Shown: piece after piece, positions 59,447-63,600 of the stretch
Position numbering within the stretch: position 1 is the first letter of the stretch
How the letters are laid out: every line of letters starts with the position of its first letter
NCBI GenBank assembly: GCA_001769535.1
Contig: MEOH01000010.1
Location: forward strand, 128,414-192,413
Reading direction: 5' to 3'
Source: Bacteroidetes bacterium GWF2_38_335
Lineage (GTDB): Bacteria > Bacteroidota > Bacteroidia > Bacteroidales > GWF2-38-335
DNA: 64,000 bases
Notes under the pieces: model-generated
Database searches by the model: none
Seen by the model: only the letters and a program-made list of their open reading frames with translations
What the model was told of the DNA's origin: nothing
Made by a program: the position numbers and the translations under genes

Positions 59447-60688
59447 ATGACATTACTGATAAAAAATATAAAGCAGTTGATACAAACTGAGGATAAACCT
59501 GTTAAGTGGAAAGCTGGCAAATCAATGTCAGAACTGAATATAGTTGAAAATGCTTATTTGGAAATTGCAGGTGATAAGATTGCAGATTTTGGATCAATGA
59601 AAAACTGTCCGAAAAAAGCCAATGAGGTCATTGATGCTTCAGGAAAACTTGTGTTGCCTTCTTTTTGTGACTCTCACACGCACTTAGTGTATGCCGGGAG
59701 CAGGGAAATTGAATATGTTGATAAAATAAAAGGTTTGTCTTATGAAGAGATTGCAAAAAGGGGCGGCGGAATTCTGAATTCGGCAAAACTGCTGAGGGAT
59801 ACTTCTGAGGATTGTCTTTTTGAACAAGCAATGGCCAGAATAAATGAAATTATTTCTATGGGTACCGGAGCAGTGGAAATTAAAAGTGGATATGGTCTTG
59901 ATACTGAAAGTGAACTGAAAATGTTGAGGGTAATTAAGCGAATAAAAGAAGCCGCACCGGTTACCGTGAAAGCCACTTTCCTTGGAGCACATTCTGTTCC
60001 CGCCGAATACCGTGGAAATCAAACTGAGTATGTTGATAAGGTAATATATGAGATGTTGCCTCAAGTGGCAGCTGAAAACCTGGCCGATTATATTGATGTT
60101 TTTTGCGACAAGGGTTTTTTTACCGTTGAGGAAACCGACAGAATTTTGATTGCCGGTATGAAATATGGATTGCGTCCAAAAATTCACGCAAACGAGTTGG
60201 CCAATTCAGGAGGAATACAAGTTGGGGTTAAATACAATGCTTTGTCGGTTGATCATCTTGAATATACCGGTGATGATGAAATCATAGCACTTCTTAAATC
60301 AGAAACCATGCCTACTTTATTGCCGGGGGCTGCTTTTTTTCTGGGCATGATCGACCCTCCCGTCAGGAAAATGATCAATGCCGGATTGCCTGTTTGTCTG
60401 GCATCAGATTTTAATCCGGGCTCATCGCCTTCCGGAAACATGAAACTGATAATGTCTTTTGGATGCGTGAAGCTAAGAATGTTGCCCGAAGAAGTAATCA
60501 ATGCCACCACAATAAACGGAGCATACGCCATGGGAATAGAAGATACACATGGGAGCATTGCAAAGGGGAAAGTGGCCAATGTTTATATTACCAAACCGGT
60601 TTCGGGGTATGAATTTCTGCCTTATGCATACGGCAGCAGCCTTGTAGATACAGTAATATTAAACGGGAAGATAGTAAGTAAATACTAA
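59447..60688 (+). CDS. hutI: Imidazolonepropionase HutI (amidohydrolase superfamily)
   Basis: ORF track, 415 aa from TTG 59441; ATG at 59447 (MTLLIKNIKQL). Metal-ligand context FCDSHTHLVYAGSRE. KIHANELANSGG. LASDFNPGSSP. Confidence 0.85.
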   Translation: MTLLIKNIKQLIQTEDKPVKWKAGKSMSELNIVENAYLEIAGDKIADFGSMKNCPKKANEVIDASGKLVLPSFCDSHTHLVYAGSREIEYVDKIKGLSYEEIAKRGGGILNSAKLLRDTSEDCLFEQAMARINEIISMGTGAVEIKSGYGLDTESELKMLRVIKRIKEAAPVTVKATFLGAHSVPAEYRGNQTEYVDKVIYEMLPQVAAENLADYIDVFCDKGFFTVEETDRILIAGMKYGLRPKIHANELANSGGIQVGVKYNALSVDHLEYTGDDEIIALLKSETMPTLLPGAAFFLGMIDPPVRKMINAGLPVCLASDFNPGSSPSGNMKLIMSFGCVKLRMLPEEVINATTINGAYAMGIEDTHGSIAKGKVANVYITKPVSGYEFLPYAYGSSLVDTVILNGKIVSKY

Positions 60689-63600
60689 ACGGTCTTTCCT
60701 GTAAATTTCATACTGATTTTCTTTTGGAAATCGGCAATCCTGCTAAAGGTCTTTTTCAGCATGGATTGTTCAATCTCGGTCAGTTTCTTCGGAATAATAT
60801 AATTGTCGGCTTTTTTGTTTTCGTTTATCAATTTAATCTGATGATTAAACCTCATGAGCATTAAATAATTATAAGCGACAAGCAATTCCTCAAAATCCTC
60901 TTTTGTTATGGCTTGTGAGTTGAGCAGGTTTTTTAACCGTCTGATGGTATTTGTTTCTCTAATGCCATTTTTCAATGAATAAATTCGGGCAAAACTGACC
61001 AGCGGGACAATGGCATCTTTGATGTCAAAAGCTCCTGAATATTCATTGATATTGCGGGTTCGGATGTTCCCGAAAAAGTCAACTGGCGGTTTAAATTGTA
61101 AGGCGTTCTGTGCAAAGTTATAATAGAAGATATCAGTCTTTTCCATATCCTCGTGCACAAATTTGTTCAGTTCATCAACAAAAGTTTGTTCTCCATATAT
61201 CAGTCTGAAATCGAAGAATATGCTTATTCCGATCAGGGCTTTGGCGTCGGGAACAACAATCCAGTCGGCAAAATATTTTTTCCATTTAGTAAGCGGCTGG
61301 CACCATCTTGGGTTTTTAGCCATAATATCTCCAACACAGAAATTATATCCTGTTTGATCGAGCCAGTTGCAAACTTTTGTGCTCAATTCAAGAAAATACT
61401 GATTAACTTGCTCTGATTGGGCTGTGTCAACATCTTCGTAAATAATTGCATTATCCTGGTCGGTAGCCAGGGTTTGTTCCTCTCTTCCTTCACTTCCAAG
61501 TACTATGAAAGCAAATTTGACAGGAGGAGGACCTAATTCTTCAATGGCAAGTTCAATTAACTTGTAATTAATTGCATCGGTAACTGCGGTAATTATGCGT
61601 GTGATGTTTTGTGTATTTGCACCGCTTGAGAGCAGAGAATTTATTAATTGGGGAAGTTTTTCCCTTGCGTTTTGTATTTCTGCAACCGTTGATGCATTTT
61701 GTACTTCGTGAATAATAATTGATAAGGAATAGGTTTGGGCCTGCATAAGCTCCTCAAAATTAACCACTGAGGCTATTCGGCCAGTAGAATCAATCACTGC
61801 CAAATGACGGATGGATTTCTCCTGCATTTTAAGAATGGCTTCAAAAACAAGCGAGCTTTCAGGAATTGAAATAAGTGGCGAGCTCATTATTTTGTAAACC
61901 TGTTCCTGCTCATTAACCCCTGCAGCAATTACTCTTTCCTTTAAATCGTAGTCGGTTATTAGTCCGGCAGTATTGTCTTTATCCACATCAACCAGCAAAG
62001 CAGAAATTTTATGTTTCGACATGATCATTGCTGCGTTTTTGATTGATGTATTGAAATCGCAGTGGGGAGTTTCATGGGTAAAGTTTTTTACCGGCTGATT
62101 TAAAAACAACAAGGAAGTTTGAAGTTCAACCATAAGGTCTTCCTGTTTTTCAAGAAATTTTTGTTGCTCGGTGATATCCTGAATAACCCCGTCGCAATAA
62201 ATAAACTCTCCATTTTCATCTTCGGTGAGAACAGCTGAAAGGGCTACACTGATAATAACACCATCATTCTTCCTGAGTTTGATTATTTTGTTCTTGATTG
62301 TTTTTTCTTTGGACAGCAATGTCATGATTTCATTGCGACTGTTTTTATCTACGAAAAGATCAAAAATATTGGTATTAAAAAGTTCTTCGTTGGATGAAAA
62401 ACCCAGAATTTTCAGAGTGGCAGGGTTTGTTTCAATAAAACGGCCTGTTCTTCCCAGTGTTGTTCTGAAAACGCCCATTTCAAGGTTGGCGGTGAGCGAC
62501 TGATATTTACTGCGGCTGGCATTAAGTTCCTGCTTATTTTTATCAAGTTTCTTAACAACCATAATAAAACCGTTATCGTTGCCAATGGTCACTTTTGAAG
62601 TGGTTAGCTCAACATCAATCTGGATTTTATCTTTTCTGATAAGTTTTGTAATAAACTCAGTAGCTTCTTTTTCACCTGAGCTAATGGGCTTGAAAAATTT
62701 TATACCGTTATTGTCTTCAAAATCTTCTTTCAGGAAAAGGTCATTTAAATATAACTTAATAAATTCTTCACGAGAATATCCCAGCATGTCAAGCAGTACT
62801 TTATTTGAGTAAATAAAATCACCTTTCAGTATCATCATGGATCCTTCGGTGGATGCTTCAATAAGTTTTTTATACCGTTCGCGTGATTTCTTTAATTCCT
62901 CCTCTGCTTTAAGTCTTCTTTTTTCAATTCTTAAACTTTGGATAATGATAAACAGAAGTATGACAACAATAGCCGAAATTATCAGCAGTGAGATGTTGAT
63001 CATCCGGCTTTCCATGGCGCTAATTTCTTCTTTTACATCTTCGATGTAGATACCGGTTCCGATGATCCATCCCCAGGGTTCAAATCCTCTGACATATGAA
63101 AGCTTGGGAACGATTTTAGTGGAATCATCTTTCCACTGCCATTCATAATCAACATATCCTCTTTCATTTTTCTTGACCTCATTAACAAACTCAACAAAAA
63201 GTCTTTTACCTTTTGGATCCTGAAAGTCTCTCAGGTCTTTCCCATTAAGATCAGGACGGTATGGATGGACAATCATGTTTGGATGCATGTCGGTAATCCA
63301 GAAATAATCTTTATCTTCTTCACCGTACCTAAGATATTCAATCCTCGAAATAGCCTCATGCTGAGCCTGCTCCCGGGTTAAATTTCCTGCTTTTTCTTCG
63401 GTTTGATATTCATGGAGAATGCTCCAGGCAGAGTTGGTTAATTCCTTAATCATTTCCCTTTTTCGATCGAGCATATTTTTCTCGAAATTCGGAAGAATAA
63501 TGGTATAAATGGAAACAATAAAAAGGGTGATGGCTAAAACTGTGGGAACCACAATTTTTATAAAAAATGGTCTGAAGTTTTGTTTTAATCCGGGTTCCAT
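60685..63600 (-). CDS. Membrane sensor: single-Cache periplasmic domain, TM, two PAS, CBS pair, DUF294 nucleotidyltransferase plus DUF294_C
   Basis: ORF track, 971 aa. Cache-like DYFWITDMHPNMIVHPYRPDLNGKDL...KLSYVRGFEPWGWIIGTGIYIEDV between two TM segments. CBS pair around ISALLVDVDKDNTAGLITDYDL and IRHLAVIDSTGRIASVV. DUF294-like FAFIVLGSEGREEQTLATDQDNAIIYED. Confidence 0.75.
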   Translation of the reverse strand: MEPGLKQNFRPFFIKIVVPTVLAITLFIVSIYTIILPNFEKNMLDRKREMIKELTNSAWSILHEYQTEEKAGNLTREQAQHEAISRIEYLRYGEEDKDYFWITDMHPNMIVHPYRPDLNGKDLRDFQDPKGKRLFVEFVNEVKKNERGYVDYEWQWKDDSTKIVPKLSYVRGFEPWGWIIGTGIYIEDVKEEISAMESRMINISLLIISAIVVILLFIIIQSLRIEKRRLKAEEELKKSRERYKKLIEASTEGSMMILKGDFIYSNKVLLDMLGYSREEFIKLYLNDLFLKEDFEDNNGIKFFKPISSGEKEATEFITKLIRKDKIQIDVELTTSKVTIGNDNGFIMVVKKLDKNKQELNASRSKYQSLTANLEMGVFRTTLGRTGRFIETNPATLKILGFSSNEELFNTNIFDLFVDKNSRNEIMTLLSKEKTIKNKIIKLRKNDGVIISVALSAVLTEDENGEFIYCDGVIQDITEQQKFLEKQEDLMVELQTSLLFLNQPVKNFTHETPHCDFNTSIKNAAMIMSKHKISALLVDVDKDNTAGLITDYDLKERVIAAGVNEQEQVYKIMSSPLISIPESSLVFEAILKMQEKSIRHLAVIDSTGRIASVVNFEELMQAQTYSLSIIIHEVQNASTVAEIQNAREKLPQLINSLLSSGANTQNITRIITAVTDAINYKLIELAIEELGPPPVKFAFIVLGSEGREEQTLATDQDNAIIYEDVDTAQSEQVNQYFLELSTKVCNWLDQTGYNFCVGDIMAKNPRWCQPLTKWKKYFADWIVVPDAKALIGISIFFDFRLIYGEQTFVDELNKFVHEDMEKTDIFYYNFAQNALQFKPPVDFFGNIRTRNINEYSGAFDIKDAIVPLVSFARIYSLKNGIRETNTIRRLKNLLNSQAITKEDFEELLVAYNYLMLMRFNHQIKLINENKKADNYIIPKKLTEIEQSMLKKTFSRIADFQKKISMKFTGKTV

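What the first reader, a model, noticed from the sequence alone, without database searches (positions are those of the whole stretch)
60685..63600. Unusual sensor architecture: Cache-TM-PAS-PAS-CBS-CBS-DUF294 nucleotidyltransferase
Seen directly: the motifs are an extracytoplasmic single-Cache-like domain between two TM segments (DYFWITDMHPNMIVHPYRPDLNGKDL...WGWIIGTGIYIEDV), two PAS-like regions, a CBS pair, then FAFIVLGSEGREEQTLATDQDNAIIYED and a long helical C-terminal region. From established knowledge, DUF294/DUF294_C proteins are putative GlnD/GlnE-like nucleotidyltransferases, usually drawn with cNMP-binding plus CBS inputs, and their substrate is unknown. Inference: here the cNMP domain is replaced by a membrane Cache-PAS input. 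That would make a one-component transmembrane sensor whose output is nucleotidylylation of an unknown target rather than phosphotransfer or c-di-GMP turnover. The gene overlaps the hutI stop convergently by 4 nt and is preceded by a small hypothetical gene.
Basis: partly seen in the sequence, partly recalled or inferred. Interest (0 to 1): 0.6.

Follow-up and report, generated by a model that had tools for sequence, protein, structure and literature searches.

The report
Acetate-type membrane sensor with nucleotidyltransferase output
This gene encodes a membrane receptor whose outside pocket matches known acetate/propionate sensors and whose inside end resembles enzymes that tag proteins with AMP; it belongs to a widespread, unstudied family usually encoded beside acetate transporters, so it points to a possibly new kind of bacterial signalling.

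Summary
ORF 60685-63600 (-) encodes a 971-aa protein: TM, sCache_2, TM, PAS, PAS, CBS pair, DUF294, DUF294_C. Every domain scores above Pfam's cut-off.

The architecture is not rare. Relatives occur in at least 598 species genomes across more than 15 phyla, nearly all uncultured. This copy is annotated only as "hypothetical protein".

New findings:
- All seven residues that hold propionate in the PscD sensor (which also binds glycolate, acetate and pyruvate) are present, and they are 99-100% conserved in 262 family members.
- The output half folds like the protein AMPylases DrrA and GlnE, with invariant catalytic residues.
- In 52 of 65 related loci the gene lies near an acetate-type transporter.
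- In 48 of 65 loci it is paired with exactly one phosphoesterase type: Metallophos, DEDDh exonuclease, AP_endonuc_2, or a fused PHP domain.
- The classical cNMP-input relatives in Pseudomonas belong to the acetate regulon, and their mutant phenotypes fit a writer/eraser pair.

Best reading: an extracellular short-chain-carboxylate sensor that controls a reversible nucleotidylylation linked to carboxylate uptake. The substrate is unproven.

The window's own locus lacks the transporter and phosphoesterase partners and keeps only a small conserved companion gene. The hutI adjacency is incidental.

The parts
60685..63600 (-). Sensor gene, 971 aa: TM - sCache_2 - TM - PAS - PAS - CBS pair - DUF294 - DUF294_C. 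Public accessions OFY36446.1, OFY77619.1 and HBS87077.1, named 'hypothetical protein A2W91_02575', Bacteroidetes bacterium GWF2_38_335.
   Evidence: ORF; Pfam; exact-sequence look-up; identical gene on 12 contigs from several sources.
63496..63564 (-). TM1 (residues about 13-35).
   Evidence: Kyte-Doolittle 19-aa windows above 1.6; a long helix 10-70 in the full-length model.
63010..63471 (-). Extracytoplasmic sCache_2 domain (residues 44-197) with a C2/C3-monocarboxylate pocket: Y99, W101, H112, F135, Y152, W154, K166.
   Evidence: Pfam E 2e-45. PDB 5g4y/5g4z (PscD) and 4k08 (Adeh_3718) at E about 1e-35, with all seven ligand residues aligned (residues from PMC5062169). These residues are 99-100% conserved in 262 unique family Cache domains.
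62938..63000 (-). TM2 (residues about 201-221), part of one continuous helix 186-249 that leads into PAS1.
62551..62880 (-). PAS domain 1 (residues 241-350); poorly conserved, probably a transmission module.
   Evidence: Pfam PAS E 1.8e-15 for two stretches, best at 241-350; 7 of 110 columns at least 95% conserved.
62161..62478 (-). PAS domain 2 (residues about 375-480).
   Evidence: Pfam PAS_9 E 5.6e-21, best stretch 385-478; strands 375-475 in the model.
61729..62091 (-). CBS pair (residues about 504-624).
   Evidence: Pfam CBS, two stretches, E 5.9e-18; PDB CBS-pair proteins.
61246..61659 (-). DUF294 nucleotidyltransferase core (residues 648-785).
   Evidence: Pfam E 1.1e-48; AF2 model with pLDDT 89 matching DrrA and GlnE.
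61450..61497 (-). Catalytic motif G702-S-x-G-R-x-E-x-T-L-x-x-D714-Q-D716-N717. A third acidic residue, D797, lies at nt 61210-61212.
   Evidence: G702, S703, R706, D714, D716 and D797 are invariant in 336 unique NTase modules.
60703..61131 (-). DUF294_C helical domain (residues 824-966). Pfam calls it the 'substrate-binding' domain; it belongs to the KNTase_C/HEPN-like clan and lacks the HEPN RNase motif.
   Evidence: Pfam E 5e-41; classification in PMC3710099.
63694..64000 (-). Small companion gene, cut by the window end. In full it is 151 aa (L001 9452-9907), hydrophobic near the N-terminus, with a weak YcxB-like match. It lies 93 nt upstream of the sensor on the same strand.
   Evidence: It is 42-43% identical (E 1e-20 to 1e-29) to the 153- and 155-aa genes beside the sensor or beside SSF-DUF485 in the closest canonical loci L088 and L090.

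Best explanation
The gene encodes a one-component transmembrane receptor.

Proposed mechanism:
1. The extracytoplasmic sCache_2 domain binds a C2/C3 monocarboxylate such as acetate, propionate, glycolate or pyruvate.
2. The signal travels along a continuous helix through TM2, then through two PAS modules and a CBS pair. The CBS pair probably adds an adenine-nucleotide or energy-state input.
3. This sets the activity of a GlnE/DrrA-like nucleotidyltransferase (DUF294 + DUF294_C), which attaches a nucleotide (AMP or UMP) to a target. The target is most likely a protein side chain.
4. In most relatives a dedicated phosphodiesterase reverses the mark. It is an adjacent Metallophos gene, an adjacent DEDDh exonuclease, an adjacent AP_endonuc_2 gene, or a PHP domain fused to the sensor.
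5. The switch tunes uptake or activation of short-chain carboxylates through ActP/MctC-type SSF symporters (with DUF485 or DUF4212 subunits), SatP-type channels, and Acs/PrpE. The mark is most likely inhibitory and the esterase restores transport.

Shown here: the architecture, topology, pocket identity, catalytic competence by sequence, fold class, gene linkage and the complementary partner pattern.

Inferred: the ligand, the nucleotide, the nature of the target, the sign of regulation and the eraser role.

The window's own locus has lost or relocated the transporter and esterase genes and keeps only the small 151-aa companion.
For: Architecture and topology.

Ligand:
- The Cache domain matches PscD-SD and Adeh_3718 at E about 1e-35.
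- All seven propionate-contacting residues of PscD are identical.
- They are 99-100% conserved in 262 unique family members.
- The Cache domain is the most conserved part of the protein, with 48 of 154 columns at least 95% conserved.

Output:
- The GSxGRxExTLxxDQDN motif and D797 are invariant in 336 modules.
- The model has pLDDT 89 and pTM 0.88.
- Its only PDB matches at E < 1e-3 are DrrA (TM 0.66) and the GlnE N- and C-terminal domains (TM 0.68 and 0.61). Aminoglycoside NTases reach TM about 0.3. No cGAS-like, poly(A)-polymerase or CCA enzymes are among the 50 matches shown (E up to 1). Two editosome TUTase entries (3hj1, 3hiy) are, at probability 0.10-0.12.

Physiological theme:
- SSF or SatP lies within 6 genes in 52 of 65 loci.
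- SSF makes up 9.5% of genes within +-4 of the sensor against 0.8% farther out. DUF485 is 4.9% against 0.2%.
- The SSFs are ActP/MctC-like or VC_2705-type. The SatP-type neighbour is an AceTr acetate-uptake equivalog. Acs/PrpE is present in 8 loci.
- Same-strand adjacent partners have a median gap of 29 nt.

Partner:
- 48 of 65 loci have exactly one esterase type (21 Metallophos, 15 fused PHP, 9 DEDDh, 3 AP_endonuc_2) and none has two.
- The PHP domains keep all metal ligands and resemble RNase AM/Cv1693.

Experimental literature on the cNMP-input relatives:
- Pflu5625 and the PP_0354-PP_0353 operon are direct CrbR/ErdR (acetate regulon) targets.
- The exonuclease mutant, but not the NTase mutant, shares the pyruvate growth defect of the actP-I and yjcH mutants.
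- An RNase-T-domain neighbour is cofit with a DUF4212/SSF lactate/alanine symporter.
- Both results are what an inhibitory-writer / restoring-eraser model predicts.
Against: - No biochemical activity has been shown for any DUF294 protein, and none was found in the searchable literature.
- All partner families (DEDDh, PHP of the RNase AM type, Endo IV-like, EEP, Metallophos) are best known as nucleases. This fits a nucleic-acid or oligonucleotide product at least as well as a protein adduct.
- The sensor is linked to three structurally unrelated transporter types, so the transporter is unlikely to be a universally conserved direct target.
- The top structural match 1v4a is GlnE's de-adenylylating half, so the direction of the reaction is open.
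- The window's own locus has none of the partners in 74 kb, so for this copy the functional link is by homology only.
- The family has a one-residue insertion and a WQWKD motif next to the pocket that PscD lacks. This could shift ligand specificity.
- The identification of PP_0354 and Pflu5625 as DUF294 proteins rests on the papers' domain descriptions and my own knowledge of COG2905. I did not verify it by sequence.
Confidence: 0.5

Rival explanations
1. The nucleotidyltransferase acts on nucleic acid or makes an oligonucleotide. It would tail a specific RNA 3' end, or synthesise a short linear or cyclic oligonucleotide signal, and the partner nuclease would trim or degrade it. This would control expression of the adjacent carboxylate transporter genes rather than modify a protein.
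For: - Every partner family found is a classical nuclease family: DEDDh/RNase_T, PHP closest to the RNase AM 5'-3' exoribonuclease and Cv1693, AP_endonuc_2 with weak Endo IV similarity, EEP and Metallophos.
- Price et al. speculated that the RNase-T-domain neighbour is needed for expression of the symporter.
- The Pseudomonas authors speculated about mRNA degradation.
Against: - Among the 50 Foldseek PDB matches shown (E up to 1) there is no poly(A) polymerase, CCA-adding enzyme, PolX or cGAS/CD-NTase. Two editosome TUTase entries (3hj1, 3hiy) appear, but only at probability 0.10-0.12 and TM 0.13-0.20. The significant matches are all protein AMPylases.
- DUF294_C groups with the GlnD/GlnE C-terminal domains and lacks the HEPN RNase motif.
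- No nucleic-acid-binding domain is detected.
Confidence: 0.25
2. The DUF294 module works mainly in the removal direction, or in both directions, like the N-terminal half of GlnE, which removes AMP by phosphorolysis. The adjacent phosphoesterase would then have a different job, for example degrading a released nucleotide product.
For: One of the best structural matches is 1v4a, the de-adenylylating domain of GlnE (TM 0.68). The same catalytic residues serve both directions in GlnE (my own knowledge).
Against: The strict one-esterase-per-locus complementarity is most simply explained by an opposing activity. DrrA, a pure AMPylase, is the top match by E-value.
Confidence: 0.1
3. The enzyme nucleotidylylates a small molecule, as aminoglycoside nucleotidyltransferases do. 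The substrate could be a carboxylate-derived metabolite.
For: ANT(4''), ANT(9), AadA and the kanamycin nucleotidyltransferase are the next structural matches. DUF294_C is in the KNTase_C clan.
Against: These matches have TM of only about 0.3 and E above 3e-3, far behind DrrA and GlnE. No metabolic pathway genes other than Acs/PrpE recur nearby.
Confidence: 0.06
4. The gene belongs functionally to the histidine-utilisation genes that flank it (hutI downstream, FTCD upstream) and senses a Hut-pathway metabolite.
For: In the window the gene overlaps hutI by 4 nt. FTCD lies two genes upstream on the opposite strand. An AsnC-type regulator is nearby.
Against: hutI and FTCD are found next to the sensor in no other locus of 91 fetched. 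hutI is convergent and FTCD divergent, so there is no shared transcript. The Cache pocket is the monocarboxylate pocket.
Confidence: 0.03
5. The NTase-plus-nuclease pair is an anti-phage defence module.
For: NTase-nuclease pairings are common in defence systems (my own knowledge). The DEDDh partner matches a generic PADLOC DEDDh model.
Against: No PADLOC model matches the sensor, in either the Cache or the cNMP form. The neighbourhood is metabolic transport, not defence islands. The relatives are regulated by an acetate two-component system.
Confidence: 0.02

Closest known systems
cNMP-CBS-CBS-DUF294 proteins with an adjacent RNase_T exonuclease (COG2905 type): P. putida/alloputida PP_0354-PP_0353 and P. 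fluorescens Pflu5625
   Same: The output module is the same: a CBS pair followed by DUF294 and DUF294_C. It is 41-46% identical to cNMP-type proteins in Desulfobacterota loci. The genomic theme is the same (ActP/YjcH, Acs, and a phosphoesterase partner). The Pseudomonas genes are direct targets of the CrbS/R (MxtR/ErdR) acetate regulon, and their deletions affect growth on propionate and pyruvate.
   Different: The input differs. Those proteins are soluble and carry one or two cytoplasmic cyclic-nucleotide-binding domains. This one is a membrane protein with an extracytoplasmic sCache_2 domain and two PAS domains, and it has no cNMP_binding match. The biochemical function of the Pseudomonas proteins is also unknown. 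I did not verify by sequence that they are DUF294 members.
PscD, McpP and Adeh_3718: sCache_2 chemoreceptor sensor domains for C2/C3 carboxylates (PDB 5G4Y/5G4Z, 4K08)
   Same: Same domain family and same position between two TM helices. E is about 1e-35. All seven ligand-contacting residues are identical.
   Different: Those are methyl-accepting chemotaxis proteins that signal to CheA. Here the output is a nucleotidyltransferase. The family also has a one-residue insertion and a conserved WQWKD motif after W154.
GlnE (glutamine synthetase adenylyltransferase) and GlnD (PII uridylyltransferase)
   Same: Pol-beta-type NTase core plus a helical C-terminal domain. The model superposes on both GlnE halves (TM 0.61-0.68, probability 1.0). 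The G-S...D-x-D motif is shared. The logic of a reversible nucleotidylyl mark controlled by metabolite sensing is shared, and GlnD also carries its own phosphohydrolase (HD) eraser (my own knowledge).
   Different: There is no sequence-level membership. The GlnD_UR_UTase match is 13.8 bits against a cut-off of 21, and the GlnE NCBIfam match is 18 bits against 625. The sensing is different (membrane Cache, PAS and CBS domains). The target is unknown, and the eraser is usually a separate gene.
Legionella DrrA/SidM AMPylation domain
   Same: It is the best structural match (E 9e-9, TM 0.66 over 349 columns).
   Different: DrrA is a secreted effector that modifies host Rab1/Rab8. Identity is 15%. 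It has no sensor domains.
CrbS/MxtR and MctS sensor kinases, the known bacterial sensors for acetate and other monocarboxylates
   Same: They share the physiological theme, control of acs/actP/mctP-type genes. The N-terminal 240 residues resemble the MctS sensor region (NCBIfam E 9e-33, far below its cut-off).
   Different: Those are histidine kinases acting through response regulators on transcription. This protein has no HisKA or HATPase_c domain.

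Membership tests
sCache_2 extracytoplasmic sensor domains (PF17200), C2/C3-carboxylate subgroup | Profile match above the curated cut-off | tested here: met
   154.9 bits against a cut-off of 25, residues 44-197.
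sCache_2 extracytoplasmic sensor domains (PF17200), C2/C3-carboxylate subgroup | Located between two transmembrane helices, outside the cytoplasm | tested here: met
   Hydrophobic segments at about 13-35 and 201-221, with a basic stretch after TM2; helices in the model.
sCache_2 extracytoplasmic sensor domains (PF17200), C2/C3-carboxylate subgroup | The seven ligand-contact residues of PscD (Y90, W92, H103, F126, Y143, W145, K156) | tested here: met
   They align to Y99, W101, H112, F135, Y152, W154 and K166, all identical, and are 99-100% conserved in 262 unique family domains.
sCache_2 extracytoplasmic sensor domains (PF17200), C2/C3-carboxylate subgroup | Actual binding of acetate, propionate, glycolate or pyruvate | not testable with these tools
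   Needs ITC or a thermal-shift assay on the purified domain.
DUF294 / DUF294_C putative nucleotidyltransferases (PF03445 + PF10335; COG2905 type) | Both profiles above their curated cut-offs, in this order, at the C-terminus | tested here: met
   165.1 bits (cut-off 21) and 140.3 bits (cut-off 22.5).
DUF294 / DUF294_C putative nucleotidyltransferases (PF03445 + PF10335; COG2905 type) | Pol-beta-type catalytic motif (G-S, D-x-D, third acidic residue) | tested here: met
   G702, S703, D714, D716 and D797 are present and invariant in 336 modules.
DUF294 / DUF294_C putative nucleotidyltransferases (PF03445 + PF10335; COG2905 type) | CBS pair immediately upstream | tested here: met
   Two CBS stretches at about 508-621.
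DUF294 / DUF294_C putative nucleotidyltransferases (PF03445 + PF10335; COG2905 type) | N-terminal cyclic-nucleotide-binding domain (the classical architecture) | tested here: not met
   No PF00027 match even at E up to 1. The cNMP-type relatives do show it.
DUF294 / DUF294_C putative nucleotidyltransferases (PF03445 + PF10335; COG2905 type) | Adjacent phosphoesterase partner and carboxylate transporter genes | tested here: not met
   These are absent from the 64-kb window and from 10 kb beyond it. Family-wide the feature is met: an esterase in 48 of 65 loci and a transporter in 52 of 65.
GlnE / GlnD protein nucleotidyltransferases | Sequence-profile membership (GlnE, GlnD_UR_UTase) | tested here: not met
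   GlnD_UR_UTase scores 13.8 bits against a cut-off of 21. The GlnE NCBIfam model scores 18.4 bits against 625.
GlnE / GlnD protein nucleotidyltransferases | Shared fold: NTase core plus helical domain | tested here: met
   Foldseek probability 1.00 and TM 0.61-0.68 to 1v4a and 3k7d, from a model with pLDDT 89.
GlnE / GlnD protein nucleotidyltransferases | Transfers AMP or UMP to a tyrosine of a protein target | not testable with these tools
   Needs an enzyme assay and mass spectrometry.
Canonical bacterial receptor outputs (histidine kinase, MCP, GGDEF/EAL, adenylate cyclase, Ser/Thr kinase) | Presence of the corresponding output domain | tested here: not met
   No such Pfam family appears among the 16 listed at E up to 1.
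Known anti-phage defence systems (PADLOC-DB) | Match to a defence-system protein model | tested here: not met
   No match for the sensor or for a cNMP-type relative.

The most novel reading that the evidence does not exclude
This family is a new class of bacterial transmembrane receptor. It would be a ligand-gated protein nucleotidyltransferase (AMPylase or UMPylase) that reads extracellular short-chain fatty acids. Together with a dedicated nuclease-type 'eraser', it would switch carboxylate transporters or their regulators on and off after translation. That would be a signalling output distinct from phosphotransfer, methyl-accepting, cyclic-nucleotide or c-di-GMP outputs, and it is present in hundreds of mostly uncultured species.
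Probability: 0.4. Interest if true: 0.85.

Novelty: new variant of a known kind. Interest (0 to 1): 0.65.

Why it matters
DUF294 (COG2905) is a large family. The profile search found 5,852 cluster representatives at 50% identity. Its biochemical function remains undetermined in everything I could search. The only genetic data, from Pseudomonas and Shewanella, are puzzling.

The Cache-input form found here supplies three things the cytoplasmic form lacks:
- a predictable external ligand, because the pocket is identical to that of the C2/C3-carboxylate sensor PscD and its acetate-binding relatives McpP and Adeh_3718;
- a clear physiological theme, short-chain carboxylate uptake;
- a sharply defined partner activity, with exactly one phosphoesterase type in 48 of the 65 loci that have enough flanking genes.

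This turns 'unknown function' into a small set of direct experiments.

If the output is protein nucleotidylylation, it adds a receptor-coupled AMPylase or UMPylase to the known kinds of bacterial signal transduction. It would also reveal a post-translational layer of control over acetate and propionate use. That is relevant to anaerobic sediments, digesters and gut-like habitats, where these uncultured Bacteroidota, Ignavibacteria, Chloroflexota and Desulfobacterota live.

Tried and rejected
- **Literature on 'DUF294'.** Most word-start hits were DUF2946. Only two open-access papers contain the exact term, and neither gives a function. A search for a Cache plus nucleotidyltransferase precedent found nothing relevant.
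- **PDB by sequence.** Only the Cache and CBS parts match. Nothing matches the DUF294 part, so a fold comparison was needed.
- **Partner genes in the window.** tblastn found no SSF, DUF485, DUF4212, Metallophos, DEDDh or Acs in the window or in 10 kb beyond it.
- **hutI/FTCD link.** Rejected, because the adjacency occurs in no other locus.
- **Defence-system reading.** Rejected by PADLOC.
- **Promoter and terminator scan.** Uninformative: 21 promoter-like sites against 14.8 expected, and sigma-70 consensus is not appropriate for Bacteroidota.
- **Metallophos partner.** Only a weak PDB hit (3rqz) and a weak YfcE-type similarity, so its natural substrate cannot be inferred.
- **AP_endonuc_2 partner.** Ambiguous between Endo IV, CbiR phosphodiesterase and sugar epimerases. 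It occurs in only 3-4 loci, so I treat it as a tentative fourth partner type. An EEP-family gene next to one relative is a single case.
- **Caveat on gene calls.** My own ORF caller (longest non-overlapping ORFs of at least 80 aa) misses short DUF485 and DUF4212 genes, so those counts are lower bounds.

Full report
**1.

One search lists an ORF at 60685..63600 on the minus strand, 971 aa, starting with ATG. Pfam finds the following, all far above the curated cut-offs:
- sCache_2, residues 44-197, E 2e-45
- two PAS domains, 241-350 and 385-478
- two CBS domains, about 508-621
- DUF294, 648-785, E 1e-48
- DUF294_C, 824-966, E 5e-41

Hydropathy gives two membrane segments, at about 13-35 and 201-221, that bracket the Cache domain. 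A basic stretch follows the second one. The full-length AlphaFold model (pLDDT 81.5) shows one continuous helix from the end of the Cache domain through TM2 into PAS1 (residues 186-249). It also shows helical linkers between PAS1, PAS2 and the CBS pair.

The downstream gene is hutI at equivalog level. It converges on the sensor with a 4-nt overlap. The upstream small gene is real and is 151 aa in full on the longer contig L001.

The exact protein is in public databases as 'hypothetical protein A2W91_02575' of Bacteroidetes bacterium GWF2_38_335. The look-up read 12 contigs that carry it, from ENA, JGI, NCBI and Logan assemblies.

**2. The architecture is common, not rare**

A word-indexed search found more than 120 full-length relatives with the same Pfam set at 45-65% identity. 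Where sources name them at all, the names are only 'DUF294 nucleotidyltransferase-like', 'cache domain-containing' or 'PAS domain S-box' protein.

By the record titles, which are not uniform in rank, they include Bacteroidota, Ignavibacteria, Calditrichota, Chloroflexota, Actinomycetota, Desulfobacterota, Gemmatimonadota, Armatimonadota, Cyanobacteria, Acidobacteriota, Spirochaetota, Lentisphaerota, Kiritimatiellia, Verrucomicrobiota and Sumerlaeota. Almost all are MAGs.

A filter-free profile search with the NTase module found 5,852 cluster representatives at 50% identity. Of the 150 closest, 96 carry the Cache input and 8 carry the cNMP input.

The input variants are:
- Cache with two PAS domains, about 970 aa (the window's form)
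- Cache with one PAS domain, about 840 aa
- an N-terminal PHP domain added to either, about 1090-1265 aa
- the classical soluble forms with one or two cNMP-binding domains

The CBS-DUF294-DUF294_C half is 41-46% identical between the Cache and cNMP forms.

**3. The Cache domain has the C2/C3-monocarboxylate pocket**

Unusually for a sensor, the extracytoplasmic domain is the most conserved part of the family. It has 48 of 154 columns at least 95% conserved, against 4-7 columns in each PAS or CBS domain.

Its best solved relatives, at E about 1e-35, are PscD-SD (5G4Y/5G4Z) and Adeh_3718 (4K08). PscD binds glycolate, acetate, propionate and pyruvate. Propionate contacts Tyr90, Trp92, His103, Phe126, Tyr143, Trp145 and Lys156, and these seven are identical in the acetate-binding McpP and Adeh_3718 (PMC5062169).

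In the residue-by-residue alignment they correspond to Y99, W101, H112, F135, Y152, W154 and K166 of the window protein, and all are identical. In 262 unique Cache domains of DUF294 sensors, six are 100% conserved and Y152 is 99% conserved.

A family-specific one-residue insertion and a WQWKD motif follow W154. The exact preference within small carboxylates is therefore open.

**4. The output half is a GlnE/DrrA-like nucleotidyltransferase that looks catalytically competent**

The motif G702-S-x-G-R-x-E-x-T-L-x-x-D714-Q-D716-N and D797 are invariant in 336 unique modules.

A model of residues 626-971 has pLDDT 89 and pTM 0.88. Against the PDB, its only matches below E 1e-3 are these:
- the AMPylation domain of Legionella DrrA (E 9e-9, TM 0.66)
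- the N-terminal half of E. coli GlnE (E 5e-8, TM 0.68)
- the C-terminal half of E. coli GlnE (E 3e-7, TM 0.61)

Aminoglycoside nucleotidyltransferases follow at TM about 0.3. No cGAS-like enzyme, poly(A) polymerase, CCA-adding enzyme or PolX appears among the 50 matches shown (E up to 1; 370 matched at E up to 10). Two editosome TUTase entries (3hj1, 3hiy) do, at probability 0.10-0.12.

By sequence the protein is not a member of the GlnE or GlnD families. DUF294_C has been grouped with the GlnD/GlnE C-terminal helical domains, which lack the HEPN RNase motif (PMC3710099).

**5. The gene neighbourhood gives the physiological theme**

I called ORFs in 83 loci, clustered them and annotated the recurrent clusters. 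Recurrent neighbours are:
- SSF symporters, in 57 loci
- DUF485 (YjcH-like) small subunits
- DUF4212 small subunits
- acetate/propionate-CoA ligases
- a SatP/AceTr acetate channel
- DcaP-like porins
- Crp-like regulators

The SSFs are ActP/MctC-like or of the VC_2705 type. Some are 57-58% identical to E. coli ActP.

Among 65 loci with at least two genes on each side, 52 have an SSF or SatP transporter within six genes. As an internal control, SSF genes make up 9.5% of genes within four positions of the sensor but 0.8% farther out. DUF485 is 4.9% against 0.2%, and Metallophos is 4.9% against 0%. Same-strand adjacent partners have a median gap of 29 nt.

**6. A phosphoesterase partner comes in interchangeable forms**

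Of the same 65 loci, 48 have exactly one phosphoesterase type: 21 an adjacent Metallophos gene, 15 a PHP domain fused to the sensor's N-terminus, 9 an adjacent PAS-DEDDh (RNase_T) exonuclease, and 3 an AP_endonuc_2 gene. No locus has two types. One further relative has an EEP-family gene directly downstream.

The PHP domains keep all metal-binding residues. They resemble the RNase AM/TrpH and Cv1693 group at E about 1e-36.

Replacement of one enzyme by unrelated enzymes with the same chemistry argues that the needed activity is hydrolysis of a nucleotide phosphodiester. That is the reverse of what an NTase makes.

**7. Published genetics on the cNMP-input relatives fit this picture**

Pflu5625 is described as having cAMP-binding, CBS and nucleotidyltransferase domains. 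It is in the CrbS/R acetate regulon of P. fluorescens (PMC5715377).

[quoted passage not shown] On pyruvate, the PP_0353, yjcH and actP-I mutants are impaired but the PP_0354 mutant is not. On propionate, both PP_0353 and PP_0354 mutants grow less well (PMC9927547; bioRxiv 10.64898/2026.09.07.749794).

In Shewanella and P. stutzeri, a DUF4212/SSF lactate/alanine symporter is cofit with a nearby 'COG2905 (RNase T domain protein)' (bioRxiv 10.1101/072470).

So a mutant in the esterase phenocopies a mutant in the transporter, while a mutant in the NTase does not. That is what one expects if the NTase writes an inhibitory mark and the esterase removes it. This reading is my inference; the authors did not propose it. 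I also did not verify by sequence that these Pseudomonas proteins are DUF294 members. That rests on their published domain descriptions and on my knowledge of COG2905.

**8. The window's own locus is atypical**

No SSF, DUF485, DUF4212, Metallophos, DEDDh or Acs gene occurs in the 64-kb window or in the 10 kb beyond it. The flanking hutI and FTCD genes are found beside the sensor in no other locus.

The closest relative, P0001 (65% identity), sits on a 10.5-kb contig that shows none of the partner genes, so it neither supports nor contradicts the pattern. The next two whose contexts I examined, P0005 and P0008 (51-52% identity), do keep the canonical context: Metallophos-sensor-153-aa gene-SSF-DUF485, and sensor-EEP...155-aa gene-SSF-DUF485.

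The 151-aa gene upstream of the window's sensor is 42-43% identical to those small genes. So one companion has stayed with the sensor. All family-invariant residues are intact in the window protein, which indicates a functional gene whose partners probably lie elsewhere in the genome.

**9. What remains open**

- No activity is known for any DUF294 protein.
- The fold points to protein nucleotidylylation. However, every partner family is best known as a nuclease, so an RNA or oligonucleotide substrate is a serious rival (about 0.25).
- The link to three unrelated transporter types argues that the transporter itself may not be the universal direct target.
- The defence-system reading and the Hut-pathway reading are effectively excluded.

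**10. Verdict**

This is a real, intact gene and a correct domain call. It is a member of a widespread but uncharacterised family. I file it as a new variant of a known kind: the DUF294/COG2905 putative signal-transducing nucleotidyltransferases, here with a membrane acetate-type Cache input.

Its value is that it makes the long-unknown DUF294 function directly testable, because a predicted ligand, a predicted partner enzyme and a predicted physiological read-out are now in hand.

Interest is 0.65. The most novel reading not excluded is a receptor-coupled protein AMPylase/UMPylase with a dedicated eraser that controls short-chain fatty acid uptake. I give it a probability of about 0.4.

Noticed in passing
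window 58727-59369 (+), between the AsnC-type regulator gene (58252-58716) and hutI (59441-60688): A 206-bp tandem repeat, 3.1 copies, 99% identical. Each unit contains an Rfam RF01687 'Acido-Lenti-1 RNA' match at or above the gathering score: 42.3, 42.3 and 37.1 bits against 37. The 59-aa minus-strand ORFs listed there are just the repeat read in frame. An independent ENA assembly of the same organism (L001 14154-14473) has about 319 nt here and no array. So the copy number differs between assemblies, either through real variation or an assembly artefact. No tRNA is present.
   Followed up: partly
window 63694-64000 (-), continuing beyond the window end (L001 9452-9907): The 151-aa hydrophobic protein upstream of the sensor has a weak YcxB-like match. 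It is homologous to 153- and 155-aa genes placed beside the sensor or beside SSF-DUF485 in relatives L088 and L090, at 42-43% identity. It was not found in the 80 genome loci, so it seems restricted to a Bacteroidota subclade. Its function is unknown, and it could be an adaptor or a target.
   Followed up: partly
L024 7188-9098, L020 5744-7717, L088 13506-15395 and 24 other sensor-linked SSF genes: 27 of 56 sensor-linked ActP-like symporters carry a hydrophilic insertion of about 150-220 aa with no TM segment and conserved WW, NGAP, LRQVG and MRPGLKFK motifs. It sits in the loop equivalent to E. coli ActP residues about 228-262. The Ignavibacteria SSFs lack it. Which side of the membrane it faces was not determined. 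It is a possible regulatory or target domain.
   Followed up: partly
L026 7991-9046 (-), with similar genes in L013, L017, L020 and L063: An acetate-uptake channel of the SatP/AceTr type (NCBIfam equivalog, 253 bits against a cut-off of 50) is fused to an extra C-terminal RsbRD_N-like domain. It is 351 aa against about 188 aa for SatP. It lies next to Cache-DUF294 sensors, four of the five loci being in Actinomycetota MAGs (L013, L017, L020, L026) and one in a Bacteroidales MAG (L063).
   Followed up: no
L073 6904-9078 (+), with homologues in 10 other, mostly Desulfobacterota, loci: The exonuclease partner of the cNMP-type sensors is itself a 724-aa signalling protein. It has N-terminal hydrophobic segments, a PAS domain and a C-terminal RNase_T/DEDDh domain. 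So the putative eraser may also be regulated.
   Followed up: no
L082 9983-12475 and 18572-21112 (Desulfobacter latus AcRS2, a cultured isolate): Two paralogous Cache-PAS-CBS-DUF294 sensors (830 and 846 aa) lie in one locus of a cultured organism. This is a possible experimental host for the Cache-type family.
   Followed up: no
L087 6004-6504 (-): In the closest relative (P0001, 65% identity), a Macro-domain gene and a Dabb gene lie just downstream on the opposite strand. This was seen only once and is probably coincidental.
   Followed up: partly
L001 4737-7401 (beyond the window end): A 7TM receptor with an intracellular HD hydrolase domain (7TMR-HDED/7TM-7TMR_HD/HD) is followed by a stand-alone response-regulator receiver gene. 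They lie a few kb upstream of the sensor locus.
   Followed up: no
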